A stretch of 64,000 nt of DNA, from the IMG/VR virus record IMGVR_UViG_3300044535_002275, positions 1 through 64,000 of that record; one strand, given 5' to 3'. Positions 635 through 15,803 of the stretch are shown in pieces; the first letter of the stretch is position 1; every line of letters starts with the position of its first letter. Source of the stretch: a virus. A program made the position numbers and the translations under genes. The notes beneath the pieces are model-generated. The model was given only the letters and a program-made list of their open reading frames with translations. It was not told the DNA's origin and searched no databases.

Positions 635-1720
635 TTAAAGACCTGCCAGGCGCTTGATATCGATCACGTTGGAACGGTCTTCTTCAACTGCCTTGACGGT
701 TTTATCACCAGTTACTTCAACCACGCTTTCTGTAAGACTCTTGCGAGTTTTAGGAGCAGCGTCGTTAAGTACAGCTGGTAGATACTTTTCGAATGCGTTT
801 TTCAGACGACTGGTCTGTACGCTTTCTAACAAATTCTTCATGACTTCACGCTTCTCATCGTTGAGAGGAGCCAGCAATTCTTCCATGGCAGTTTCACGTG
901 CTGTGGATTCTTTGATCATGCGAATTTCACGCTCTTTAGTTTCGACCAGTTGCTTTGACTTCTGGACGATTCTTGTAGCTTCTTCTAGCTGACGATTCTT
1001 GTCGCTGACTAATGTCTGCAGTTTGCGGACTTCGGCATTCTCATTGAGATATGTCGAACCAAACTCTGCAGCATACGCTTCAAAAATACGACGTCCAAAA
1101 TTGTTCTCGCGAGCAACTCGGATGTCTTCGTGCAACTGTGACATTTCAGCTTTTAGATGGCTAGCAACAGCACGACTCATCTTGGCAGCAGATTCTGTTA
1201 CAAATCGAGCCTTGAGAGCTTCCAGCTTGCTACGGGCTTCGCGAACCAAACGAACTTTTGTCTCAACGACATCACGCTTGTCTTGTTGGAATTCCATAAT
1301 TTCCTGGGCTAGTGCTTCCACAACAAAACGCTCCAATTTCTGGATGCCTTCTGAGTGAACTTGACGATCTTTGCGCAGTTCGCCAATTTCTTCGGCCAAT
1401 TTAGAAACCATAAAGTCGTTGAACTTTACAGCACTTTCTTTCATTTTGCCTTGGAACTTGACACGATCTTCTGCCAGTGCTTGCTTTTCAGCAGCAACAG
1501 CTTGAATTTCTGCGGTCAGACCTTCTGTTACCATGCGATCTAGGGCTTCAACCATTACTGTCTTGTCTTGCTCGTAGCGTTGTGCATACTCTTCTCTGAG
1601 TTCTGCACGTAACTGTTCGCGAGCTTCTGTGAGTTTAGATTCCCAAGCTTCGTTGAGTTCTTGTCCCACGTCCTCGTTAATGAGTCCGCTATCTAGCAGT
1701 GGTTTAATAGCATCAAACAT
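635..1720 (-). CDS. gp22: Prohead core scaffold protein, T4 gp22-like
   Basis: Long Glu/Lys/Ala-rich coiled coil located between the protease and the major capsid gene. Confidence 0.88.
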   Translation of the reverse strand: MFDAIKPLLDSGLINEDVGQELNEAWESKLTEAREQLRAELREEYAQRYEQDKTVMVEALDRMVTEGLTAEIQAVAAEKQALAEDRVKFQGKMKESAVKFNDFMVSKLAEEIGELRKDRQVHSEGIQKLERFVVEALAQEIMEFQQDKRDVVETKVRLVREARSKLEALKARFVTESAAKMSRAVASHLKAEMSQLHEDIRVARENNFGRRIFEAYAAEFGSTYLNENAEVRKLQTLVSDKNRQLEEATRIVQKSKQLVETKEREIRMIKESTARETAMEELLAPLNDEKREVMKNLLESVQTSRLKNAFEKYLPAVLNDAAPKTRKSLTESVVEVTGDKTVKAVEEDRSNVIDIKRLAGL

Positions 1721-1729
1721 CTATTTCTC

Positions 1730-2353
1730 CTAGATTTTGAGATCTTTGATGAGGCGTTTTACTTCCTCTTTCAAATATCTCTGTACCTTGTTGTCCGACC
1801 CAGCTTCGCGTGCCATTTCTAGCATGCGATGCCCGTGGCGCATATTCAACAAGCCTTCATAGATGGCTTTTGGATAGGCATTAGGCGCTGATGGTTGGGC
1901 AACCACATCCACAGTGACTATTTCAAAGTCACTGACATGTCCGTTTGCTTCGTTAACGTTACCGCTACCTCGGCTCGAAACTCCCAATTTCACACCACTT
2001 TCCAGCAGTGTGCGGACGAGATTTCCCATGGGTGTTGGCAATATTTTCATTTTACCAAAGCCGTTGGGGCCGTCCATCCACATTTCTATCATGTTGATAC
2101 AAACGCGGTCTAAGTTAATTTTTAAATCATCTGGATGATCCAGTTCCCCAAGAACTGAATTACCTGCTTTGATTTGCTCCATAAGGGTGCCAACAGCACG
2201 CTCTATTTCTGAAACAGGATACACACGCTCATTGGCGTTTTTTACTCCGCCTTGAATGCAAATCCCTTTCATATAAAGATCCTTGCCGTCGACACCTTCC
2301 ACAACCATGCGGGCAGCGTCGAACGTCAAGTTTTCTCTTAGGTAAAGAGCCAT
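1730..2353 (-). CDS. gp21: Prohead maturation protease, T4 gp21-like
   Basis: Motifs KNANERVYP, LGELDHP, GVSSRGSG and DVVAQPSAPNAY. Confidence 0.96.
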   Translation of the reverse strand: MALYLRENLTFDAARMVVEGVDGKDLYMKGICIQGGVKNANERVYPVSEIERAVGTLMEQIKAGNSVLGELDHPDDLKINLDRVCINMIEMWMDGPNGFGKMKILPTPMGNLVRTLLESGVKLGVSSRGSGNVNEANGHVSDFEIVTVDVVAQPSAPNAYPKAIYEGLLNMRHGHRMLEMAREAGSDNKVQRYLKEEVKRLIKDLKI

Positions 2354-2366
2354 TTACCTGGGTTCC

Positions 2367-3125
2367 TTATTGGATAACACTTTTAGTATTGACACCTGTG
2401 GCTTGGGCTAGGTGTGGTTTAGTTGCAGGTGCTTGCTTAGGGCTTGTTGTGCTGCCCATGTCTTTGACAGCAGGCGCACTGCGACCTTGTGCTGTGTCAC
2501 CGGTCATTTTGACTGGATGAGCTTGTGCACCTTTGGCACCAGCGTTAGCTGCTACTGTACTTTTTTTGTTGACTGAACCTTCTTCCGAAGTAACTGGCTT
2601 AGGAGCAGCTTTGAGATCAACGTTTTCGTACATGCCTTCGGTTTCTAACTCGTCATCAACAACTTCTTCGCTGTCCATGTCGGGTGTGTCCATCTCGTCG
2701 TCCATTTCGATGTCCATTTCGTCGTCACTTTCATCGTCGCCCATAAGGCTTTCAAATTCAGCCATGAGTTCGTCCAGCTTGTCTTCGAGATCAACAACAC
2801 GATCTTCTAATTCTTCGTCACCGCCTACGTCGTCGTGATGATCAGAATCCATGTCGTCCATGTCATCTTCACCTTCCATGGAGATACCTTCTTCTTCAGT
2901 TTCGATATCGTCGATTAGATCGTCGGCTTGATCGCCGCCCATTTCCTCGATTCCTTCTTCAACTGCTTCTTCATCCATGTGTTCGGATTCTTCAATTTCT
3001 TCATCCTGCATCATTTCTTCGTAGATAGCACGACTTTTTTCTACTACGATGTCGTGAAATAATTCACGGGCTTTGGCTTCTTCATCATTGATTACATATT
3101 CAATGAGTTGTTCAAATTTATTCAT
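2367..3125 (-). CDS. Highly acidic prohead core protein (gp67-like position)
   Basis: Asp/Glu-rich low-complexity protein between portal and protease. Start moved to ATG 3125 because GGAGG lies just upstream. Confidence 0.65.
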   Translation of the reverse strand: MNKFEQLIEYVINDEEAKARELFHDIVVEKSRAIYEEMMQDEEIEESEHMDEEAVEEGIEEMGGDQADDLIDDIETEEEGISMEGEDDMDDMDSDHHDDVGGDEELEDRVVDLEDKLDELMAEFESLMGDDESDDEMDIEMDDEMDTPDMDSEEVVDDELETEGMYENVDLKAAPKPVTSEEGSVNKKSTVAANAGAKGAQAHPVKMTGDTAQGRSAPAVKDMGSTTSPKQAPATKPHLAQATGVNTKSVIQ

Positions 3126-3232
3126 GAGGACCTCCAATGTAATGGCTCTGTTAGATATTTAAGCCAAACGAAATAAACACAGTAGATTACCGGTGTTTTT
3201 GATAGATTTTTGACGATTTTTGTAATTTTTAC

Positions 3233-3451
3233 TTAGGCCAAGGGCTGAGCTGGTGGTGCATACTGTTGTTTGACTTTTTTTATTTTTTCTTTAAACTCAT
3301 AAGCCCGAACGTCGTTCATTTTTCTCAGCTTGTTGAGTTGACGTAAAGTCAGCTTGGTTTTTCGCAATTGTCCCAATGCAGGTTGCGAATTGTCTTGTGC
3401 CAAGTCTTGATATGCGTCTGGCGATCGTTGATAAAGCTCTGTCAGTATCAT
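3233..3451 (-). CDS. Small basic prohead protein (gp68-like position)
   Basis: 72 aa with RKTKLTLRQLNKLRKM, directly downstream of the portal gene. Confidence 0.6.
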   Translation of the reverse strand: MILTELYQRSPDAYQDLAQDNSQPALGQLRKTKLTLRQLNKLRKMNDVRAYEFKEKIKKVKQQYAPPAQPLA

Positions 3452-3459
3452 AGTGATAT

Positions 3460-5286
3460 TTAGCCCGCCGGCGCAGGAACAGCTCCGCCTGGTGCTGCTC
3501 CTGCAGCTGGTTGTGATCCTGGAGCAGGACCAGCTGGAACATTAGCAAACTCATCGCCGCCTGGTTCGCCTACACCAGCCATTTCTCCGCCGGTGGCAAT
3601 GTCACCTTCAAAATCTGCCGGAGTTACACCAACACTACGCAAGTCGCCGCCTTGTGCTGTCGGCGCTTCTGGATCAGTGCGTTCTTGATGCCAGAGTTTT
3701 TCGTTTTCTTGAATTTCTTCCTCAGTCAATCCTAGATAACGTTTGAGTAAGAATCTTTTGCTCATGTATGGAACTTGTTCTAACTGCTGAAATGTACTGA
3801 CCCTAGTGGTGTCTAATTCAGCTTCTCTGTAGCTAGCAAAGTTCTGTGGTGGGTTAAACGCTATAGAGAACAGGCTAGAATCAATGTTGAAACCTCTCCA
3901 ACGCATAAACATCTTAAATTCGTCGTCAAGTTTTTCAATAATCAAACGCTGTAAACGCTCACAATACTGATTAAACCGATATTCTTGTATCAGTGCTGTT
4001 CCAACACGCCCGTCATTCATGGGACGGTCTGAATCGTCTGGTCCAGTGGGTAAGTAGCTGCTAGGCACACGTAGACCACGACACATCTTGTTGTTGAAGT
4101 ACTTTAAGTCGTCAATTTCGCCTAGATTACTGCCGCCTGGTAAAGTTTCTACGCTGCTGCCTCGTCCATCTGCTGTTTGTGGAAAGAAGTAATCTTCGTT
4201 GATGCTAAGTGGATTATAACTGCTGTCCATTATGTGTTGTCCGCCACCGTTGCCACCAGTGTTGCTGGGTATTCTGCGCTGATGAATTTCGTTTTTGACA
4301 CGTTCAACAAAGGCCATGGCCAGGTGACTGGGCATATTGCCCACGTCAATTTTAAATACCCTACGCTCAGGTGCTCGTGCTGTACGATAGATCAACACAG
4401 CATCTTCTAACAGTTCTTTTTGTTTGAACACACGAAAAATAGTTTCCAGCACACTCATGGAAAACGGCCAGTAGTAGTCTAATCCTTCGCTAAGTCCCAA
4501 ATGAACTACATGCTTGGCATCCACTACAGTTTCGTTCATTGCTGCTGAAAATCTACTGCCGCCTGAACCTTGTCCGCCTGCGCCAGCATTGGGCGCAGTG
4601 TAATTGTACGGAGCTACATAAGCACCCGACGGCGGTGTCGATTGATAATCCGTGGTGGTTTTTACTGCCACACTCAGATTTTGAAAGTTGGGATTAATGT
4701 CTCTAATCACATACTGCTCAGGACGCTTTCCTTCACTTTCGTTAACAATAACTCTAGCAACCTTGGTCATGTCGACCCAATACATTTCAAACGTTTCTGG
4801 ATCACGGACAAAGACTTGATCGCCGTACTTTAACGTATTACGAAAAATTCTAAAGATTCTTTGATCTAGTTTGTTGAGTTTACACCACTGCTGCAACTGC
4901 TTTCTTATGATGTCAATTTCATGGTCAGTGGGATCATCATTATAAACAACTTGAAAAGGAACTGTTTCTCCCTTGACTGTCTGAGTACAAAATTCTGCCA
5001 AGATGTCCAAACAGGCATTGATTTCACTGTCTGAATCCATATTTTCGTATTGGTTGTATCTCTCAATTCTATTAGGATGCCCAGAATATACTTCTGGAAG
5101 TCTACTAGCATAATTGCGATATGCAATATCGGCATGTCCACGCATGGGGTCTCTGCCGTCTTGTCGACCGTAGCCAGGCAATCCGTCTGCGCCTTTGCCG
5201 CTGAGAGGACTAAGTTCTCCGCCAACGTTGGCTACTTTAAAGTACTTGCGCCAACCTTTCTTACTGTTATTTTGCGAATCTGCCAT
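3460..5286 (-). CDS. gp20: Portal vertex protein, T4 gp20-like
   Basis: Motifs LLEDAVLIYRTARAPERRVFKIDVGNMP, EDYFFP and GSSVETLPGGSNLGEIDDLKYF. Confidence 0.97.
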   Translation of the reverse strand: MADSQNNSKKGWRKYFKVANVGGELSPLSGKGADGLPGYGRQDGRDPMRGHADIAYRNYASRLPEVYSGHPNRIERYNQYENMDSDSEINACLDILAEFCTQTVKGETVPFQVVYNDDPTDHEIDIIRKQLQQWCKLNKLDQRIFRIFRNTLKYGDQVFVRDPETFEMYWVDMTKVARVIVNESEGKRPEQYVIRDINPNFQNLSVAVKTTTDYQSTPPSGAYVAPYNYTAPNAGAGGQGSGGSRFSAAMNETVVDAKHVVHLGLSEGLDYYWPFSMSVLETIFRVFKQKELLEDAVLIYRTARAPERRVFKIDVGNMPSHLAMAFVERVKNEIHQRRIPSNTGGNGGGQHIMDSSYNPLSINEDYFFPQTADGRGSSVETLPGGSNLGEIDDLKYFNNKMCRGLRVPSSYLPTGPDDSDRPMNDGRVGTALIQEYRFNQYCERLQRLIIEKLDDEFKMFMRWRGFNIDSSLFSIAFNPPQNFASYREAELDTTRVSTFQQLEQVPYMSKRFLLKRYLGLTEEEIQENEKLWHQERTDPEAPTAQGGDLRSVGVTPADFEGDIATGGEMAGVGEPGGDEFANVPAGPAPGSQPAAGAAPGGAVPAPAG

Positions 5287-5323
5287 GTATTAATCCGTAT
5301 ATTTCATTTGTATTACTTATTCG

Positions 5324-8300
5324 TTATGAAGTGTTGACTTGAATTAGTCTGTTGATAGCACCTGTTTGTTCGCGCTGTGCTGTAATCATTTCGCTCAATA
5401 ATGCAGGTACAGCAGGATCATTGGTGCCACCGGTACCAATCTTGCTGACTAATTGACTGGTAAGATTTTCCATTCCGCTAGTAATGGCTGTTTGAGTTGC
5501 TTCGGTTTGTGCTTGCATAGCTTGTGTGATTGCCGAAATATCGCCGCCAATAGCGCCTGGAGCTCCGCCAGCAGTGACTCCGGCCAAGGGGGTCGTTGCG
5601 CTACCCCCGAGCATGCCACCCAACATGCCCATCAATCCACCGCCACCGGCAGGCGCACCACCTCCAAGCATACCACCCAGCATGCCTATTAATCCGCCAC
5701 CGCCGGGAGTTGCTGCACCTGCTGTCATTCCAGGTATTGCTCCAGCAGCTGGCATTCCCGGTGCTGCAGCGGTCATTGTGCTGCCTTTGCCAGCTGGCAT
5801 GCCCAACATGGCCATTACATCGCCTTGCTCGCTTATAAATCTATTTTTGACACTCTTTTGCACTTCTTCGGTGCTGCCACCAAATCTAGTACCGCGTTCA
5901 GCATAAACAGCTTTAACAAGATCTTCTTGGCTCATGCCCTCTTTGAAGACTTTGTTCATAATACCTGATGCGCCGCCGCCACCGTGCTGCACAGAAGTAC
6001 TCCACATCATTTCCTGAAGGCCTTTGTTGCCTTCAATCATTTTCTTGAGTTTAGGATCTTTTAATCCAGCCATTGCAGGATCAAAGCTGCGTTTTTTAAT
6101 AAATTGATGCTCTAAGTCACCTAACTCTCCAGCAGCAGCCATTTGTTTCCAAACGTCTACAGATTTACCGCTAGTACCGCCGGTGTCAGTTTCAGCTCCG
6201 GCTTCTCTTAGCTTCTTAGCAACATCTCCACGACCCGATTGTTCTGCAAACTTTAGAAAATCTTTCATTGCACCTACTTTAGATGCAATTTGATATTTTC
6301 CGTAACTGGTGCCGCCGACTTTATCCCAGCCAACTGTTCCGCTGCCTCGGCCGCCGGTTTCATATTTTTCCGACATTTTACCAAGGCTGTCTGACATCAT
6401 TCCTATAGAAGGATATTGCGTTGCGCCTGATCGACGACCTTGCCTAGCAATATTAGGATTACCAGTAGCAGCGCCGCCAGCTGTAGTACCAAATCCCGGC
6501 ATGTTATAAAACTGACTAGGATCAACTTTAGTTCCATCTTTTAAACGCATTTCGTGATGCAGGTGTGCACCGGTACTTTTACCTGTATTGCCTACAGTTC
6601 CAATCTGTTGACCGGCCTTAATAACATCGCCAGTCTTGACCATGGTTTTATCCATGTGAGCCAGCATGTGCTTGACTCCTGTAACGGTATCAGTGACCTC
6701 AACCATGTTGCCGTAGCCGCCAGACTCTTTTTCACTTAGGACTCTAGCTACACCCGAAATAGGTGCCATGATCTTGTCGCCGATTTTTCCAGCTAAGTCG
6801 ATAGCGCCGTGTCCTTGCACTTTGCCATCCATCATGCGATTGCCAAAGCCGCTGGTCTGAACCATTTTTTCCAAGGGATTAACAATAGTACCAATCTGCT
6901 TGGCAAGAGCTGGATCTACTGGAGCGGTTGGTTCGTGCGGATGTGCATGATCATGTTCGGCTAGAGCTTCTTGAGCAACTCTCTCAGTTGTACTACCGCC
7001 CATTAAGCCAGAGCCACCAGTTATAGCTGTCAGTATCTTGTCCAAAGTAACGTTGGACTTGACCAGTTCTTCGTTGCTTTTTTCTATCAAAAAGTTAGTT
7101 TCATTGGCTGGATTAAACACCGGACCGGCATTCATGCCACCAGCTAAACTACCTAATGAGCCAGCATCTATCTTAACTGGAATTGTTTTTCCGTCGGGTA
7201 ACGGTATTACAGCTTCTGTTCCGTGCAACAATTGTATATGGCCGCTGTTAGGGCCTGTTGCAATACCCCCGGATGCAAATCCCGGAGTTAACAGATTTCT
7301 CATTAACTCTTGCTGTGTTTTGCCGGTCTCCTCATCTTTTTGTTGTCCGGCTCCGGGCAACATGTCAGTAAGGCCTTTCATTGCATTAGTGAACTTCTGT
7401 ACAGTCCAGGTAGCAGCAGGTATTATCTTTCCAAAAAAGTCAGAAACATTCTGAGATTGTTTAAGTGCTTTGCCAGCTCTGTCTGCTTCTCTTTCAAATT
7501 CTTTGTCTTGTTTGCCTGCAATGTCGGTTCTAATTTTTTCTTCAACTATTAGACCGTTCTTAAGCTTTTCGAGTGCATCAAATATTGGACCAACTCTCAT
7601 CCCTGTAAGATCTTCGGCGCCGCCAACTTGCCCTAGTGTTCCTAGTCTTTCAGTAAAACCTTTGCCTATCTGAGTCAATACCTTTTGTGCCAGTACCTGA
7701 GGATCAATGCCTTTTCCAGATTCCATAGTTTGAAAAGCCTCACCACCGGTCAATATGTTTATACCCTGTGTTCCTTTACCTCCCATGAATCCGCCGGCCT
7801 GAGCCAATATTGCTGATGCTGCATCTTTAGCACCAACGTTGCTGAGTTGTTCAGCAGTTTTTTGATATCGTGTTAATCTTTCTATTTCTTGCTGATCACC
7901 AGCTGCTTTGGCTTGTTCCAACTTAATACGGAACTGTTCCACAGCCATTGCTTGATTTTGAGCTTCTTGTTGTTCTTCTACAGTTGCGCCTGTTTGTCTA
8001 CTGACTTTGACAAGATTTGCATAGTATTCGTCGAATGTTTTAGCAGCATTTTTTTCTTGCAGTTGACGGCTTCTGCCCATGCGTGTTTCATTAAGTGCAA
8101 AATTCATTAGGGTTGCATTTTGCGCTTCGTATCCTTGTCCTAGCGCATAAAACTTATCTCTTATGCCAGATTGTTCAATGTCAGATGAAAGGCGTCCTAA
8201 TACTTTTGCTCCTTCTGTAGCCCCACCAGCAAACATAGCTAGATTTTTGCTGTTACTGGCTAGAAAAGTTGAAAATTGTTCTAGGTTTTCAGTTGAATAA

Positions 8301-11094: not shown

Positions 11095-11427
11095 ATGGAC
11101 ATCTACACAATCTGGGCAAACAAAGAAGGTGACATATCAGATCTAGAATGGGTCACAGGCATGCGAGCATTCTTTGATCATCTGGTTTCAGAAGGACGTA
11201 TGGAAAGCTATAGAATCACTAGATGTAAGATGGGATTTCGCAGCATTGCCGACATGCCCGAATGGATGATACTCATGGAGTTCCGGGACATGGCACAGAT
11301 GGATAGTGCATTTAAACGTGTTGCTCCATTAGAAGGCGAACTAGAAAACAAGCACAAGAGTTTCAATCAGTTTGTTGCTGGTGACATACAACACGCTCTG
11401 TTTAGGGATTGGCCCGATCAACTCTAG
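11095..11427 (+). CDS. Hypothetical protein, DUF6614-like dimeric alpha-beta barrel
   Basis: HL..EGR..SYRITR.KMGF......EW.I.MEF.DMAQ.D.AF...ALFRDWPD. Confidence 0.5.
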   Translation: MDIYTIWANKEGDISDLEWVTGMRAFFDHLVSEGRMESYRITRCKMGFRSIADMPEWMILMEFRDMAQMDSAFKRVAPLEGELENKHKSFNQFVAGDIQHALFRDWPDQL

Positions 11428-12170
11428 GTGAATTGGGGATATCCCTTAAATTCAGAAGCCACATAGTCTGGATCGTATACTGGCAGTAGACTAAACAAAA
11501 ATGTTTCTGCCGGCACAACCTCTGCAAATAACCCACCTTTGGTAGTAAGAGCCACCACTGTTTCAACATTAAAATAATTATACGCAGTGTCGATTGTTTC
11601 TTCCCAGGCCCAAAAACTGCCAATGTTGTGTCCGTCTGGCGACAGTTGATAATTGGCATCAACGCAACCACTGAAACAAAACCAATCTCTACTCCACTGC
11701 AAGGGATGTGCTTGCACCAGAAGTCTCCACCCCTTTGGCATTTTTGCACGCCAAGGAAAACCCATTATCTTAAAGGACCATTCGTAATTTCCTGCACCAT
11801 CGTTGGCTGCCCAACAGGTACCGTGCAGCATTTCTGGATGAAGATATGCTTCAGCCCAGCCCTTGGGTTTAGTGTCCATATGGCGCCAGTTGTCTAATGA
11901 ATGTTTAATTGGCATAGTATAACCTAACTTCCTTACACCTTTAATGCCCTCACAGAATTTAACACTGCGCCAGCCGTGAGCACTCAACATGTTGACATCA
12001 TCTGACGTTTGCGTAGGCAATTGAGCATGTCTTAGATTACCAGGTAAATGACGAAACCACTCTGGTCTTGATTCTTGAAGCTGTATTGGAGCAGGACACA
12101 TTGACTCAGGAACACCATCCGGTAGTAGAGCACGTTCCCATGTGAGATATTCGTTAACAATGATTTGCAT
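11424..12170 (-). CDS. Hypothetical phage protein
   Basis: 248 aa with PEWFRHLP...VKFCEGI......GYTMP. TAAGTA motif 8 nt upstream; stop codon overlaps the convergent gene in CTAG. Confidence 0.7.
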   Translation of the reverse strand: MQIIVNEYLTWERALLPDGVPESMCPAPIQLQESRPEWFRHLPGNLRHAQLPTQTSDDVNMLSAHGWRSVKFCEGIKGVRKLGYTMPIKHSLDNWRHMDTKPKGWAEAYLHPEMLHGTCWAANDGAGNYEWSFKIMGFPWRAKMPKGWRLLVQAHPLQWSRDWFCFSGCVDANYQLSPDGHNIGSFWAWEETIDTAYNYFNVETVVALTTKGGLFAEVVPAETFLFSLLPVYDPDYVASEFKGYPQFT

Positions 12171-12189: not shown

Positions 12190-12681
12190 TATTGTACTGT
12201 ATGAGTAAGAACTTCTGCGAAGTTCTGTTGATTTCGCTACCGCTCATCAACATTTTTTTAAAGCATTTAAGATATCTCATCTAGACTCAACGGCCACACT
12301 TAACCCACACAGGGTTAAGAAATGGTGACCTCATCTGAGCTCTTACTACCACACTAGCGTTAGAACTACAAGATATCAACATGATATCTAACACAGGCGG
12401 TTGTCCGGTACCTGCTCGTTCCGTCTTAATATACAACGGTAGTCTGCAACACACACGCTGTCGTATGTGCAAACCTGAGGTTTTTCTCCTCTCTTTTTGC
12501 CTTTTATATCTTTTTCAAACAATCAAATCGCAGGGCTTACAAAGCGATCTTCATCCTTTCGGGTAGTGATTGAGTGCTTCGTGCAGCGCGAAGACTTCCG
12601 TCCCTGTGACTCTCGTCCAGGTTTAGGGCACCCGATGTAGACTGGTGCTGGTCAATAAACTGCTGTAGCGTTGCCTGAGTA
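12190..12681 (-). ncRNA. Candidate large structured non-coding RNA (~490 nt), family unknown
   Basis: The only long non-coding gap in the window. Minus-strand stems include CCUG-GAC[GAGA]GUC-A-CAGG, CC[GAAA]GG inside an AAUCA/UGAUU + AUCGC/GCGAU junction, CACAUACG[ACAG]CGUGUGUG, GCAGG-UAC-CGG[ACAA]CCG-CCUGU, AGAUAUCA/UGAUAUCU and GGUCAC..CUUAACCC/GGGUUAAG..GUGGCC. GNRA loops and G-U pairs favour the minus strand. Confidence 0.6.
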
Positions 12682-13110
12682 TTACAGTTTGTTTTTTATA
12701 TGTGATCCATGTACACGTACCTGAATATGACCGTTGTAGTAGTCATCTGATTCCAGTACTCGCCGCGCAAATTGTTCGCGGGCTTCTATGTACGAGCATT
12801 CGGATCTTGATCGACAGTAGTATAATATTTCGCGATGGAAATTGCCTGTGCCTTGCTGATTGATGTCTTCTGTGAGATTAGGAGATGATCCCCAGTATTG
12901 TTGCCAGTCTGAATCTATTTTAGTTTTAATTTTTTTACGTTTTTTGTTGCCGTTCTTTAATTTTACTACACGATAGGTGGTCTTTGCAAACTTTGCGAGC
13001 TTCTTGCCCACATACATTTTGCCATTGGCATTATTAGTAATCAGGTAAACAAACCCCACACAATCGTCGGGTAATTCATTTACAGCAGTTCCTTGATAAT
13101 ACCATGTCAT
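12682..13110 (-). CDS. Stand-alone GIY-YIG endonuclease (EndoII/Seg-like catalytic domain)
   Basis: GFVYLITN...KMYVGKK, YWGSS, conserved E and YN; Lys-rich insert; no C-terminal DNA-binding domain. Confidence 0.85.
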   Translation of the reverse strand: MTWYYQGTAVNELPDDCVGFVYLITNNANGKMYVGKKLAKFAKTTYRVVKLKNGNKKRKKIKTKIDSDWQQYWGSSPNLTEDINQQGTGNFHREILYYCRSRSECSYIEAREQFARRVLESDDYYNGHIQVRVHGSHIKNKL

Positions 13111-13177
13111 GGTACATACTTATCTGTTGCCTTATAATGAAATACATTTTTATAGATTCTTTCTTTTAAGTAAAAAA

Positions 13178-14056
13178 TCAATTTGTAAATTGTATATTTC
13201 TTTGCCATTGATTGGTAAAATTTGATTGATTGTTAACAGTGCTGCAAGTTTGTTTGCATACAGGGTTACATTTATCAGTATTCCAGTTGGCTTGTATTTG
13301 ATCAAAATTGTCGATTGTTTCTTTTCCAGTGCCAAGCCAACAGCAAGGATGTAGTACTCCTTGGGCACTGAGATATAAACTTTGGTCGTTGTTTCTGAAA
13401 CAATTGATTGGGCCCAAATCGGCTGCTGGTCGCGTCCAGCTCTTTGGCGGCAATAGCCAATCAACGGTAGACTGGCGCTTGCTGACTTTTGCACGAAACC
13501 AAGTAAAACCCATTTTGCGAGCCAGGCGCTCGCAGTCGTTGACCTGATGTTCGTTGTGTTTGTAAACCAACATATCCCAATGTGCTGACCCGCCGGCTTG
13601 AATAAATGCCTCTGCATTTTTCATAACCAGATCCCAGTTGACATTACGACGGTAGATATGATTGGTATCTTCTAGCCCGTCAATGCTGAACACTACATAG
13701 TCTTGCGGTTGGTTTAAAATATCTGCTAGATCTTTCCACCAACGAGTATTTTGTAAGCCACCATTGGTGTTCATCCCCAGCACAATATCGGGATTAATAC
13801 TTCTAAAATATGAAAAGATGTCAACTGATTGTCGATTAGCAGCTGGATCGCCGTAGTTACCGCACATGAACATTTTGTCTAACTGAGATATTGTCAATTC
13901 GCCAAGCAACTGCCTGATAGACTCTTCTGTTAGATAATGATGTTTATCTTTGTCAAAATTGATATCAGTTTCTCTTGCGCACAACGGGCATGCCGCCTGA
14001 CATACATCAGTAGGCTCTAAATGCAAAACTCGTACAGTATCAAGCAATGTCAACAT
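13178..14056 (-). CDS. Radical SAM enzyme with C-terminal Cys cluster (twitch-like)
   Basis: CQAACPLC, MCGNYGDP, TNG, FSIDG, and C-terminal C...PCCW...C...C...C. Likely start is ATG 14056, overlapping the end of gp46. Confidence 0.85.
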   Translation of the reverse strand: MLTLLDTVRVLHLEPTDVCQAACPLCARETDINFDKDKHHYLTEESIRQLLGELTISQLDKMFMCGNYGDPAANRQSVDIFSYFRSINPDIVLGMNTNGGLQNTRWWKDLADILNQPQDYVVFSIDGLEDTNHIYRRNVNWDLVMKNAEAFIQAGGSAHWDMLVYKHNEHQVNDCERLARKMGFTWFRAKVSKRQSTVDWLLPPKSWTRPAADLGPINCFRNNDQSLYLSAQGVLHPCCWLGTGKETIDNFDQIQANWNTDKCNPVCKQTCSTVNNQSNFTNQWQRNIQFTN

Positions 14057-15803
14057 CGGTATTATAACTGGTAAATCCGTTCTCTTTGACAACACGTAGA
14101 ATATTTTCTACACGTCCGGCCAGCTCGTCTCTGTGACTGACCAACCAGATGCTTTTGTGTCGTTCTCGGCTCATTTGTTTCAGCAAGGCCAAGCTGTTTT
14201 CAACACCTTGTGTGTCTAGTCCGTTGTCAATCATTTCATCAATGAACAACAAGTTGATGGGCTGGTATAGGCTTTCAAACACATCTCTGAATGCCCAACT
14301 CATGCTCAAGATTAATCGATTACGCTCGCCACGGCTCAAATTGTCAAAATCCAATTCTCTGCCCAGTTCTTCGATGCTGACAGTGAGATCGTTTTGAAAC
14401 ACCACTGTATGCGGCAATCCAATGCGATCCAGGTAATGTGTGAGTCTTGAATTGAGATAGCTGAGATTTTGTTCGATAATCTTTTTGCGAATAAAACTGT
14501 CTTTGCTGGTCAACAACTTGAGCAAGAACTCTTGATGCTCTTGTAGTCTTGTCAAATCGTTCATGTGGTCGTAGCTGACTTCCTGTAAGGCCTGTTGCTG
14601 CATATCTTCGATCTGTTCAGCATAAGGATCTGAATCCTGACTTCTGGTAGCTAGTTCTTTTCTCAAGCTTTCCAAGCTGTTGCGATGGTCGAGTGCATCT
14701 TCTAATGTATCGTAAAAAACACTTGGCGCTGTACCTAGGTCACCAAGGTCATCTAACTCGTTTTCGTGTTCCATGTGTTGTGTGTTGTTGGCCAGCAATT
14801 GCAGCGCAGTTTCTTGCAACGAAGCCTGCTTGCTGCTGCGAATTTCGTCTTGTTTGTGGTCATGTATGCCTTGTCCACACGCATAGCATTGATGCGCATC
14901 TAATGCAGCAATCTCTGCTTTGAGTTTGACAACCAACTTTTCCAATTTGGCATCATCACTTTCAATACTTCTGATCCAGCGGGTATGTTCGTCGATGGAT
15001 TTTTTCTTGGCGTGAAATTGTTCCAGTTCGCGGTGCGCAGCAACTTCGGCATCAATGTCAATGTGTTCTAGACTAGAGATACCCAAGTTGAGTTTTTCAA
15101 CATCTTCGTTGCGTTTGGCAGTCCACATGCGCTGGCGCTTGTACAAGCTTTCGATCTGTTCTTCAATTCGCTTGTTGGCTTCTTGCACAGCACGTATACG
15201 AAATTCTTCTTGTTGTATTCCATCCTTGGTAGTCTTGTTCAGTTCTTTGATACGATCAGCACGTTCGCTTAACAAGGTAATGCCCAGCAGTTGCTCGATT
15301 AGAGTACGTTGTTCGTTGGCTTTCAAACTGAGAAACGGTTCAGTGTAAGTGTTGAGAGCCAAGATATGCTTGAACATGTCGTGACTGAGACCCAGGGTAT
15401 GTTCAATGGCATTTTGTGTTTCTCGACTGTCGCCTTGCGAGTCATCGACGATCTCTTGTTCTCTATGATTCACATAGAATTTTAACACATTGGGTTTACG
15501 ACCACGTTCGATTCGATATTCTTGGCCACCCACAGCAAAGTCCAGGCTGACCAGCATGTTTTTGCCGTTGGTCTTGTTAACAAGATTGTCCTTTCTGATA
15601 TTGCTTAGAGCTTGTCCATAAAGAGCATAGCTGAGTGCATTGATGATTGTGGTTTTGCCTGTGCCGTTTCTACTGCCATCACCGCCTAGGTCTAAGTTTT
15701 CTCCTAGAACCAAAGTAAGATCACGACGATCGAAGTCGAGGCCCTGCGTAGCATTGCCCACGCTCATAAAATTTCGTACTGTCAAATTCTTTATATTAAT
15801 CAT
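14040..15803 (-). CDS. gp46: Recombination endonuclease ATPase subunit (Rad50/SbcC-like), T4 gp46
   Basis: NFMSVGN, Walker A NGTGKTT, zinc hook CYACGQ, signature LSRGE, Walker B LLFIDE, SH switch. Confidence 0.95.
   Translation of the reverse strand: MINIKNLTVRNFMSVGNATQGLDFDRRDLTLVLGENLDLGGDGSRNGTGKTTIINALSYALYGQALSNIRKDNLVNKTNGKNMLVSLDFAVGGQEYRIERGRKPNVLKFYVNHREQEIVDDSQGDSRETQNAIEHTLGLSHDMFKHILALNTYTEPFLSLKANEQRTLIEQLLGITLLSERADRIKELNKTTKDGIQQEEFRIRAVQEANKRIEEQIESLYKRQRMWTAKRNEDVEKLNLGISSLEHIDIDAEVAAHRELEQFHAKKKSIDEHTRWIRSIESDDAKLEKLVVKLKAEIAALDAHQCYACGQGIHDHKQDEIRSSKQASLQETALQLLANNTQHMEHENELDDLGDLGTAPSVFYDTLEDALDHRNSLESLRKELATRSQDSDPYAEQIEDMQQQALQEVSYDHMNDLTRLQEHQEFLLKLLTSKDSFIRKKIIEQNLSYLNSRLTHYLDRIGLPHTVVFQNDLTVSIEELGRELDFDNLSRGERNRLILSMSWAFRDVFESLYQPINLLFIDEMIDNGLDTQGVENSLALLKQMSRERHKSIWLVSHRDELAGRVENILRVVKENGFTSYNTDVDIA

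What the first reader, a model, noticed from the sequence alone, without database searches (positions are those of the whole stretch)
12190..13122. Candidate nuclease-RNA system: minimal GIY-YIG nuclease immediately followed by a ~490-nt ornate RNA
Seen: in a genome whose genes mostly abut or overlap, the only long non-coding stretch begins at the nuclease stop codon. It folds by eye into ten or more helices with GNRA tetraloops (GAGA, GAAA), G-U pairs favouring the nuclease strand, a three-way junction, an A-rich linker and a repeated C(U/UC)AGAUGAG. The 142-aa nuclease has its own late-type promoter (13117), no DNA-recognition domain, and a basic insert (KLAKFAKTTYRVVKLKNGNKKRKKIKTK). Known: nuclease-adjacent structured RNAs exist (HEARO/IscB, TnpB omega RNAs), and phi29 uses a packaging RNA. 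I do not recognise this RNA. Inference: a co-transcribed RNP (RNA-guided or RNA-regulated nuclease), a virion/packaging RNA, or an R-loop replication origin with a dedicated nickase.
Basis: partly seen in the sequence, partly recalled or inferred. Interest (0 to 1): 0.82.

Follow-up and report, generated by a model that had tools for sequence, protein, structure and literature searches.

The report
Extended Polynucleobacter-1 phage RNA beside nuclease
The gene-free gap behind a small nuclease gene of this giant T4-like lake phage encodes a real, roughly 455-base, doubly knotted non-coding RNA whose first third is the orphan Rfam motif Polynucleobacter-1; the evidence makes it the nuclease's neighbour and not its guide, and its function is still unknown.

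Summary
A 142-aa GIY-YIG gene (12682-13110, minus strand) is followed by a 511-nt gene-free gap that encodes a structured RNA (about 12205-12660). The RNA is not unknown: its 5' third matches Rfam RF01718 (Polynucleobacter-1) at 112 bits, against a cut-off of 37. Weinberg et al. (2010) had already noted that this motif lies downstream of one gene family, and I show that family is this nuclease.

Beyond what is catalogued:
- The RNA is three times longer than the Rfam model, with 15 covarying helices and two pseudoknots.
- It has at least three classes that differ in 5' and middle domains.
- Its tail carries two 7-nt "twin boxes", identical to each other in 108 of 113 RNAs although at least 10 words occur.

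A nuclease-RNA partnership is not supported. Nucleases that are 98.6% identical flank different RNA classes and box words. The RNA body swaps as a cassette with a breakpoint at the nuclease stop codon. An unrelated PD-(D/E)XK nuclease replaces the GIY-YIG gene in some loci. Distant homologues of the nuclease have no such RNA.

The best reading is an autonomous RNA gene that shares the nuclease's transcription unit. This scan had already reached a similar reading on at least eight other genomes.

The parts
12682..13110 (-). 142-aa single-domain GIY-YIG nuclease gene (SegE type; phrog_447, often mislabelled 'NAD synthetase'; homologue of P-SSM2 PSSM2_218)
   Evidence: PF19835 at E 3.7e-32. phrog_447 at E 2e-35. 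36% identity, E 1e-19, to PSSM2_218. The GFVY, YIG, E109 and N126 positions are invariant. AlphaFold2 mean pLDDT is 80, and the best fold matches are the I-TevI catalytic domain.
13116..13123 (-). ATAAGTAT box 6 nt upstream of the nuclease ATG: a conserved locus-specific signal, possibly a promoter (unverified)
   Evidence: ATAA[CGT]TA lies within 45 nt of the ATG in 65 of 134 unique loci, against 1 of 134 in a control window. It is not enriched in the window as a whole.
12517..12653 (-). 5' domain of the RNA: a full-length match to Rfam RF01718, Polynucleobacter-1 (helices H1-H6)
   Evidence: cmscan gives 112.2 bits against a gathering score of 37, E 8.6e-25, covering model positions 1-141. 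Helices 1-6 are 96-100% paired with compensatory changes.
12491..12519 (-). A-rich single-stranded linker between the 5' domain and the uncatalogued part
   Evidence: Conserved and A-rich in the 61-sequence alignment.
12354..12491 (-). Uncatalogued middle domain. It holds hairpin H7, the long hairpin H8 whose loop (12456-12461) pairs with 12354-12360 (pseudoknot 1), and helix 12433-12437 / ACAAC within 12396-12412, which crosses two other helices (pseudoknot 2). It includes the invariant GGUACCGG..ACCGCC and a window-specific insert hairpin (12369-12390).
   Evidence: Unbiased scan of all column pairs. Helices 7-12 are 89-100% paired, and pseudoknot helices 9 and 10 are about 96% paired with 6 of 6 and 3 of 5 pairs compensated. 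Coordinates.
12276..12339 (-). Twin-box module: box 1, CUC+AGAUGAG (12330-12339); central hairpin (12299-12319); box 2, UCU+AGAUGAG (12276-12285)
   Evidence: The two 7-mers are identical in 108 of 113 unique RNAs although at least 10 words occur. The module is present in all three RNA classes. No third RNA column and no nuclease residue covaries with the boxes.
12208..12250 (-). 3' end module: a hairpin with a conserved GAGCG-NN-AGCGAA loop (12228-12250) and a terminal 8-bp hairpin (12208-12226). Conservation stops after this.
   Evidence: All 8 pairs of the terminal hairpin are compensated. The region is shared by all RNA classes, and it is where homology between genomes resumes. On this RNA strand the hairpin has no following U tract; the only terminator-like call on it was on the opposite (+) strand.

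Best explanation
The gap encodes the full-length form (about 455 nt) of the Polynucleobacter-1 RNA. It is an autonomous, trans-acting, doubly pseudoknotted non-coding RNA of giant T4-like freshwater phages.

Inferred steps: it is made as the 3' end of whatever mRNA lies upstream, usually the GIY-YIG nuclease mRNA, because it always starts 10-50 nt after a same-strand stop codon. It is then released or stabilised, with two 3' hairpins marking its end.

Shown from comparative data: its body is a modular cassette. There are at least three alternative 5' and middle domains on a common 3' module. The cassette recombines between otherwise collinear genomes independently of the nuclease.

Inferred working surface: two identical single-stranded 7-nt words (the twin boxes) displayed on either side of a hairpin, read by a bivalent or dimeric partner that is not the neighbouring nuclease. 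The adjacency to the nuclease would then reflect a shared transcription unit at a fixed genomic slot downstream of the gp46/gp47-like recombination nuclease genes.
For: - Identity: RF01718 at 112 bits. Weinberg 2010 (PMC2864571, supplementary file 1) places the motif downstream of the GOS11034 / PSSM2_218 gene family, and that family is this nuclease.
- Extent and structure: conservation spans 12660-12205. 15 helices and 2 pseudoknots show strong covariation.
- Autonomy from the nuclease:
  (a) GIY-YIG proteins 98.6% identical flank class I, II or III RNAs, while within class I the proteins fall to 58% identity.
  (b) Pairwise locus comparisons show homology up to the nuclease stop codon, none across about 375 nt of RNA body, and homology again from the last ~60 nt of the RNA.
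  (c) In 5 loci a PD-(D/E)XK nuclease (PF24608, E 3e-28) precisely replaces the GIY-YIG ORF in front of the same RNA.
  (d) ORFs of 243-365 aa are inserted between nuclease and RNA in 7 loci, and two loci have no nuclease ORF within 400 nt.
  (e) Nuclease homologues at 35-50% identity (Melnitz, S-SSM4, phiM12, P-SSM2) have no such RNA.
  (f) The 5' half-motif occurs in Burkholderiales MAG contigs with no GIY-YIG gene.
- Twin boxes: identical in 108 of 113 RNAs, with at least 10 words. Nuclease pairs at 97% identity or more differ in word in 5 of 17 cases, and no protein column tracks the words.
- Fixed slot: the upstream neighbour is a radical SAM gene or a ~590-aa gene in 102 of 150 loci.
Against: - There is no expression data.
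- Linkage to a nuclease gene of some kind is very tight. About 98% of class I loci with enough upstream sequence have one, and two unrelated nuclease folds end at the same spacing from the RNA. That could mean functional coupling and not mere synteny.
- No reader of the twin boxes was found in the RNA, the nuclease or the 159.5-kb genome fragment.
- The shared 3' module could still bind the nuclease. My tests exclude co-evolution with the boxes and with the 5' and middle domains, but they do not exclude binding as such.
Confidence: 0.55

Rival explanations
1. Homing-endonuclease landing pad. The slot just 5' of a conserved RNA gene is occupied by free-standing, Seg-like endonuclease genes (GIY-YIG, sometimes PD-(D/E)XK, plus other inserted ORFs). 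These would cut the RNA gene region of co-infecting relatives, and the resulting double-strand-break repair would create the recombination breakpoints at the nuclease/RNA junction. The RNA would be the target or neighbour and not a cofactor. This can be true together with the best explanation.
For: - The protein matches the SegE-type Pfam family and PHROG homing-endonuclease families.
- Two unrelated nuclease folds are swapped precisely in the same slot.
- Further ORFs pile up between nuclease and RNA.
- Mosaic breakpoints lie exactly at the nuclease stop codon.
- The RNA part nearest the nuclease is the most variable between classes, and the distal 3' end is shared.
Against: - The nuclease is nearly universal and not sporadic: about 98% of loci have it, there are at least 8,000 protein clusters, and it is near-universal in cyanomyoviruses.
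- It has no DNA-binding domain (142 aa, against roughly 220-250 aa for Seg proteins; that figure is from my own knowledge).
- Catalytic motifs are intact everywhere, which suggests a selected function.
- Homing should co-convert the nuclease with the adjacent RNA allele, yet the two are uncoupled.
Confidence: 0.2
2. Nuclease-RNA partnership. The RNA binds the upstream nuclease, which has no DNA-binding domain, and guides, tethers, regulates or neutralises it. The common 3' twin-box module would be the docking platform, and the box words possibly a programmable specificity element.
For: - Near-obligate same-strand adjacency holds across three RNA classes and even across two nuclease folds.
- The nuclease lacks a recognition domain and has a confident basic beta-hairpin arm.
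- Box words that vary between near-identical nucleases are what a programmable guide would show.
Against: - The same protein family works without this RNA in hundreds of cultured phages.
- The basic stretch is family-wide and not specific to the RNA-linked clade.
- Replacement by an unrelated fold argues against a specific protein-RNA interface.
- ORFs can separate the two genes.
- There is no free guide-like segment. A 7-nt word is too short to give specificity, and neither the word nor its complement is enriched in the genome.
- There is no Rfam similarity to the HEARO/omega RNAs.
Confidence: 0.1
3. Cis-acting 3' UTR element. The structure acts only on its own transcript, for example by protecting or timing the mRNA of a potentially toxic nuclease, and has no trans function.
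For: - The RNA always starts right after a same-strand stop codon.
- Weinberg 2010 scored the motif as possibly cis-regulatory.
- Two 3' hairpins close the unit.
Against: - About 455 nt with two pseudoknots, invariant loop nucleotides and twin boxes kept identical is far more than mRNA protection needs.
- The upstream ORF varies: GIY-YIG, PD-(D/E)XK, radical SAM or unknown ORFs.
- Two loci, and the bacterial half-motifs, have no upstream nuclease ORF.
Confidence: 0.08
4. A group I intron carrying a homing endonuclease, a packaging RNA, or an R-loop replication origin.
For: For the intron reading, only the layout of an endonuclease ORF next to a structured RNA. There is no positive evidence for the other two.
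Against: - No Rfam hit to Intron_gpI, GIR1 or phi29 pRNA, even at E up to 1.
- The flanking genes are not halves of one gene. The downstream 248-aa gene occurs only in this window, and in many loci the neighbour is on the opposite strand.
- The locus sits among recombination genes and not among packaging genes.
- Compensatory changes indicate a folded RNA.
Confidence: 0.02

Closest known systems
Polynucleobacter-1 RNA motif (Rfam RF01718; Weinberg et al. 2010, Genome Biol 11:R31, PMC2864571)
   Same: The window's 12517-12653 matches the whole 141-nt model at 112 bits. The gene association is the same: downstream of the GOS11034 / PSSM2_218 family. The freshwater habitat is the same, and the function is unknown in both.
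   Different: - The catalogued motif is only the 5' third of a roughly 455-nt RNA.
- The middle pseudoknot domain, the twin boxes and the 3' hairpins are not in Rfam.
- The 2010 paper found the motif in no purified phage and did not recognise the neighbouring gene as a GIY-YIG nuclease.
- Class II and III RNAs replace this 5' domain altogether and hit nothing in Rfam.
Large ornate bacterial and phage RNAs of unknown function (GOLLD, ROOL, OLE, raiA)
   Same: It works like them in a descriptive sense: a large, multi-helix, pseudoknotted orphan RNA carried by phages that also encode many tRNAs (27 tRNAs and a tmRNA in this genome).
   Different: There is no sequence or structure similarity: no Rfam hit. 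It is smaller than GOLLD and ROOL. It is not next to the tRNA cluster, which lies about 80 kb away. Its twin-box feature and cassette-like allelic classes are not described for those RNAs (that last point is from my own knowledge).
Omega RNAs of IscB (HEARO) and TnpB
   Same: A structured RNA encoded directly beside a small nuclease gene and probably on the same transcript.
   Different: The nuclease has a GIY-YIG fold, not RuvC/HNH. There is no transposon context, no guide segment and no HEARO hit. The RNA class and the nuclease are evolutionarily uncoupled, and the nuclease is replaceable by a PD-(D/E)XK enzyme.
Free-standing Seg-type GIY-YIG homing endonucleases of T4 (SegA-G)
   Same: GIY-YIG catalytic domain of the SegE Pfam family, an intergenic position next to a conserved gene, and a local recombination mosaic.
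   Different: There is no C-terminal DNA-binding domain. The distribution is near-universal instead of sporadic. Homologues form a widely conserved gene of cyanomyoviruses, T4-GC 213.

Membership tests
Rfam RF01718 Polynucleobacter-1 RNA | Covariance-model score above the curated gathering score, over the whole model | tested here: met
   112.2 bits against a gathering score of 37, model positions 1-141 of 141, E 8.6e-25, minus strand only.
Rfam RF01718 Polynucleobacter-1 RNA | The model's helices are supported by compensatory changes in homologues | tested here: met
   Helices 1-6 are 96-100% paired, with 3-5 compensated pairs in most of them.
Rfam RF01718 Polynucleobacter-1 RNA | Lies downstream of a gene of the GOS11034 family (PSSM2_218-like), as described by Weinberg 2010 | tested here: met
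   The upstream gene is 36% identical (E 1e-19) to PSSM2_218. The same arrangement holds in 108 of 118 motif-bearing viral contigs.
GIY-YIG nuclease superfamily (the protein) | GIY and YIG strands plus a conserved Glu and Asn; I-TevI-like fold | tested here: met
   PF19835 at E 3.7e-32. GFVY, Y33-x-G35, E109 and N126 are invariant. The best fold matches are the I-TevI catalytic domain (1mk0, 1ln0) at probability 0.98-0.99, but with a weak E of about 0.05.
GIY-YIG nuclease superfamily (the protein) | Conserved catalytic Arg after the YIG strand (I-TevI R27) | tested here: inconclusive
   By eye, an invariant S67-D68-W69..Y72 lines up with I-TevI's R-W..H. Invariant K36/K37 or residues of the basic arm could substitute. 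No residue-level superposition was made, and the model's C-terminus, including N126, has low confidence.
Seg-type free-standing homing endonuclease | C-terminal DNA-binding domain and sporadic presence among close relatives | tested here: not met
   The catalytic-domain match covers residues 3-129 of 142. The gene is present in about 98% of loci.
RNA-guided nuclease systems (IscB/HEARO, TnpB omega RNA) | RuvC-type nuclease, a scaffold RNA with an adjacent variable guide, and protein and RNA inherited as a unit | tested here: not met
   The fold is GIY-YIG. There is no HEARO hit and no guide-like segment. Nucleases 98.6% identical sit beside different RNA classes.
Group I intron with an internal homing endonuclease ORF | Group I ribozyme core, and flanking exons that form one conserved gene | tested here: not met
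   No Intron_gpI hit at E up to 1. The downstream gene is found only in this window, and the downstream strand varies between loci.

The most novel reading that the evidence does not exclude
The twin boxes are a programmable, duplicated recognition word. The RNA's shared 3' module would dock whichever nuclease is encoded upstream (GIY-YIG or PD-(D/E)XK) and use the two identical 7-10-nt words to bring it to a nucleic-acid target, or to sequester it. That would make this the first RNA-directed GIY-YIG system. My data exclude co-evolution of the nuclease with the words, and with the 5' and middle domains. They do not exclude binding to the common 3' module, and words that vary between near-identical nucleases are what a programmable element would show.
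Probability: 0.06. Interest if true: 0.9.

Novelty: new variant of a known kind. Interest (0 to 1): 0.5.

Why it matters
Large, intricately folded RNAs of unknown function are rare, and those that have been solved turned out to be ribozymes, guide scaffolds or self-assembling cages.

This result shows that an orphan motif catalogued in 2010 is only the first third of a roughly 455-nt, doubly pseudoknotted RNA. The RNA is carried by a very abundant group of uncultured giant T4-like freshwater phages; its neighbouring gene alone forms at least 8,000 protein clusters.

It also gives concrete handles for experiments:
- exact boundaries of the RNA;
- three interchangeable allelic classes on a common 3' module;
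- two 7-nt boxes that selection keeps identical, which implies a bivalent reader yet to be found.

It corrects a widespread mis-annotation as well: the neighbouring gene is labelled 'NAD synthetase' in many GenBank phage records but is a GIY-YIG nuclease. And it tempers the attractive idea of a new RNA-guided nuclease.

Tried and rejected
- Group I intron with a homing endonuclease: no Rfam hit, and the flanks are not one gene.
- tRNA or tmRNA: none in the window.
- RNase P-like RNA: a few short resemblances by eye (GGAAGUC, ACAACCGCC, AGAUGA). But there is no Rfam RNase P hit at E up to 1, and the GGAAGUCUUC segment forms a local covarying hairpin instead of a P4-like long-range helix.
- Hammerhead core around UGAUGAGCG..GAAA: that segment is a covarying hairpin stem, and the 'CUGAUGA' is not conserved.
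This was checked by eye only.
- CsrA-type GGA sites: many RNAs, this window's included, have AGA and not GGA.
- AGGCAAC flanking the nuclease ORF as a duplication or signal: not enriched, 8 found against 8.1 expected.
- ATAASTAT as a general promoter of this phage: not enriched in the window.
- Box 1 pairing with box 2, or with the invariant UUGUUUGA strand: possible on paper, but it does not explain why the boxes change in step. Thermodynamic folds are inconsistent between homologues.
- An internal or protein reader of the boxes: none found.
- The box word or its complement in the phage genome, its tRNAs or its tmRNA: no enrichment and no exact complement.
- A hidden RNA downstream of the nuclease homologues in Melnitz, S-SSM4 or phiM12: none.
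- Phage DNA databases: no nucleotide match for the locus.
- One script call returned no answer and was repeated.
Full report
**What is there.** On the minus strand, ORF 12682-13110 encodes a 142-aa protein that matches the SegE-type GIY-YIG Pfam family over residues 3-129 (E 3.7e-32). It lies downstream of a radical SAM gene (13178-14095) and a gp46/Rad50-like gene (14040-15803). From its stop codon to the next gene (11424-12170) there are 511 nt. This is the only internal stretch of 250 nt or more in the window that has no ORF of at least 80 aa. The window is the first 64 kb of a 159.5-kb IMG/VR virus record that CheckV rates 44% complete. Related contigs reach 315-355 kb. The rest of the record encodes 27 tRNAs and a permuted tmRNA. 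So this is a giant T4-like phage.

**The RNA is partly known.** A scan of the region against all of Rfam gives one hit: RF01718, Polynucleobacter-1 RNA, at 12517-12653 on the minus strand. It scores 112.2 bits against a gathering score of 37, and the whole 141-position model is matched. The only paper in the library that names the motif is Weinberg et al. 2010. Its supplement says that most copies lie downstream of genes of the family GOS11034, with possible homology to PSSM2_218 of cyanophage P-SSM2. It also says that the 3' half is not always detected and that no copy was seen in a purified phage. I fetched PSSM2_218: it is 36% identical to the window's nuclease (E 1e-19). In GenBank phage records and in PHROGs it is widely labelled 'NAD synthetase'.

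**The RNA is much larger than the catalogued motif.** In nearly all of them the next ORF of 80 aa or more begins only 370-670 nt after the core. Sequence conservation runs from about 12660 to 12205 and then stops. I aligned 61 diverse copies and scanned every column pair for Watson-Crick compatibility and corrected mutual information. This recovered the Rfam helices and nine more:
- a hairpin H7;
- a long hairpin H8 whose 6-nt loop pairs with a strand about 100 nt downstream (pseudoknot 1);
- a helix that crosses two others around an invariant GGUACCGG..ACCGCC (pseudoknot 2);
- a central hairpin;
- a hairpin with a conserved GAGCG-NN-AGCGAA loop;
- a terminal 8-bp hairpin.

The formal count on this structure gives 82 pairs, 94.6% paired against 36-40% for slid partners. 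57 pairs have changes on both sides, the covariation score is 0.44 against about 0.06, and no shuffle out of 500 reaches the observed values. Every new helix except the GAGCG stem, which is misaligned by MAFFT, is 89-100% paired. The abundant conserved G-U pairs fix the strand.

**Linkage to the nuclease, in both directions.** Of the 118 RNA-bearing contigs, 108 have a GIY-YIG homologue (62-90% identity) upstream on the same strand. In 101 of these it ends 34-88 nt before the motif core; in the other 7, ORFs lie in between. Starting instead from the protein, 580 viral contigs encode a close relative. Among the best 80, almost all with enough downstream sequence carry a long non-coding RNA. The protein family is huge: at least 8,000 clusters at 90% identity, all called 'hypothetical'.

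**Three RNA classes.** The protein-first sample showed that the Rfam motif is only one of at least three alternative 5' domains.
- Class I has the RF01718 domain.
- Class II has an unrelated 5' domain but the same middle pseudoknot core and the same 3' end.
- Class III differs in both the 5' and middle domains and shares only the 3' module.

Classes II and III hit nothing in Rfam.

**Is the nuclease the RNA's partner?** Several independent results say it probably is not.
1. GIY-YIG proteins that are 98.6% identical sit beside class I, II or III RNAs, whereas within class I the proteins diverge to 58% identity.
2. Pairwise comparisons of such loci show 77-95% nucleotide identity through the upstream genes and the nuclease, right up to its stop codon. 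There is then no detectable similarity over about 375 nt of RNA body. Similarity returns at the last ~60 nt of the RNA and in the downstream genes. So the RNA body behaves as an allelic cassette that recombines independently of the nuclease.
3. In five class I loci the same slot holds a 172-aa PD-(D/E)XK endonuclease (PF24608, E 3e-28) that ends at the same distance from the RNA. Homology with GIY-YIG loci stops at the end of the upstream gene and resumes at the RNA's 5' end.
4. Seven loci have one or two extra ORFs (243-365 aa; two of them radical SAM) between nuclease and RNA. Two loci have no nuclease ORF within 400 nt.
5. Homologues of the nuclease in Methylophilales phage Melnitz (50% identity), cyanophages S-SSM4 and P-SSM2, and Sinorhizobium phage phiM12 have no comparable RNA. 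S-SSM4 has a tRNA there instead.
6. The RNA-linked clade has 6-11 extra residues there, and AlphaFold2 models the stretch as a confident beta-hairpin arm. The fold's best matches are the I-TevI catalytic domain.
7. In bacterial genome collections the core pattern is rare: 5 MAG contigs. Two are short fragments with nuclease plus full RNA, probably mis-binned phage DNA. Three (Limnohabitans, another Burkholderiales bin and Haliscomenobacter) carry only the 5' half of the motif and no GIY-YIG gene. In the two longer contigs the half-motif sits beside a DUF6641 gene, and in one of them next to a type III restriction-modification system.

**What still argues for some coupling.** A nuclease gene of one fold or another precedes the RNA in about 98% of class I loci with enough sequence, always on the same strand. 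The RNA always begins within 10-50 nt of a stop codon. The simplest account is a shared transcription unit in a fixed slot: the upstream neighbour is the radical SAM gene or a ~590-aa gene in 102 of 150 loci. The RNA would then be produced as the 3' end of the mRNA. A conserved ATAA(C/G/T)TA box precedes the nuclease start in 65 of 134 loci, against 1 of 134 in a control window. But it is not a general motif of this phage, so calling it a late promoter remains a guess. A second account, compatible with the first, is that the slot is a landing pad for free-standing homing-type endonucleases next to a conserved RNA gene. That would explain the fold swap, the extra ORFs and the breakpoints at the junction. 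It fits poorly with the near-universal presence of the gene and its missing DNA-binding domain.

**The twin boxes.** The most conserved single-stranded elements, shared by all three classes, are two boxes on either side of the central hairpin: CUC+7-mer and UCU+7-mer (12330-12339 and 12276-12285; the word is AGAUGAG in this window). I had seen them change in parallel. After earlier notes of this scan made the same claim, I tested it. The two 7-mers are identical in 108 of 113 unique RNAs, although at least 10 different words occur, and the same words occur in different classes. Three of the five exceptions are false detections by my pattern. With 108 sequences anchored on the boxes, no other RNA position covaries with them (mutual information 0.33 or less, against 0.9-1.0 between the boxes). 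Nucleases that are at least 97% identical differ in word in 5 of 17 pairs, and no protein column tracks the words. Neither the word nor its complement is enriched in the phage genome fragment, and neither occurs in its tRNAs or tmRNA. Something bivalent reads these boxes. It is not the nuclease acting as a co-evolving reader, and I could not find it.

**Verdict.** The interpretation as a nuclease-RNA system is only partly supported: the RNA is real and the adjacency is real, but partnership is unlikely. The element is a member of a known Rfam family whose published description covers a third of the molecule. The full-length architecture, the alternative classes, the cassette behaviour and the twin boxes are not in the literature I could search. 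Earlier agents of this scan reached a similar reading on at least eight other genomes. Function remains unknown.

Noticed in passing
G000:C1:91681-105772 (outside the window, same virus record): The phage carries a permuted (two-piece) tmRNA with tag AANDELFLAAA and 27 tRNA genes in one minus-strand cluster.
   Followed up: partly
L047:13755-14273 (-), also L087, L095, L119, L114: A 172-aa PD-(D/E)XK endonuclease (PF24608) precisely replaces the GIY-YIG gene in front of a class I RNA. This is non-homologous nuclease replacement in one slot.
   Followed up: yes
L165, L169, L176 (class II); L141, L185, L189 (class III); downstream of the GIY-YIG gene: Two further large structured RNAs share only the 3' module (class III), or the middle and 3' modules (class II), with the window's RNA. 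They have no Rfam match.
   Followed up: partly
L207:465-557 (-) and L208:351-439 (-): Burkholderiales MAG contigs carry only the 5' half of the Polynucleobacter-1 motif, with no GIY-YIG gene. In both it sits beside a divergently oriented DUF6641 gene. In L207 a type III restriction-modification pair follows (Mod 1282-3426, Res 3426-6137).
   Followed up: partly
L186, L194, L198, L182: between the GIY-YIG stop codon and the class III RNA: A small ORF of about 60-72 aa with two Cys-x-x-Cys pairs is inserted between the nuclease and the RNA.
   Followed up: no
window 13116-13123 (-), and the same position in 65 of 134 related loci: A conserved ATAA(C/G/T)TA box lies 7-37 nt (mostly 11-15 nt) upstream of the nuclease ATG, with no evident Shine-Dalgarno sequence between them. 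It is not a general motif of this phage.
   Followed up: partly
GenBank phage records, e.g. NC_006883 PSSM2_218 and KR052481 (table): The GIY-YIG family (phrog_447, T4-GC 213) is annotated 'NAD synthetase' in many phage genomes. Pfam and the predicted fold say it is a nuclease.
   Followed up: yes
L121:2480-3181 (cyanophage S-SSM4): The cyanophage homologue of the nuclease is followed, after 195 nt, by a tRNA-Arg gene instead of the large RNA.
   Followed up: no
window 11424-12170 (-): The 248-aa gene directly downstream of the RNA has no Pfam family and was found in none of the 118 related loci. The region downstream of the RNA is hypervariable between relatives.
   Followed up: partly
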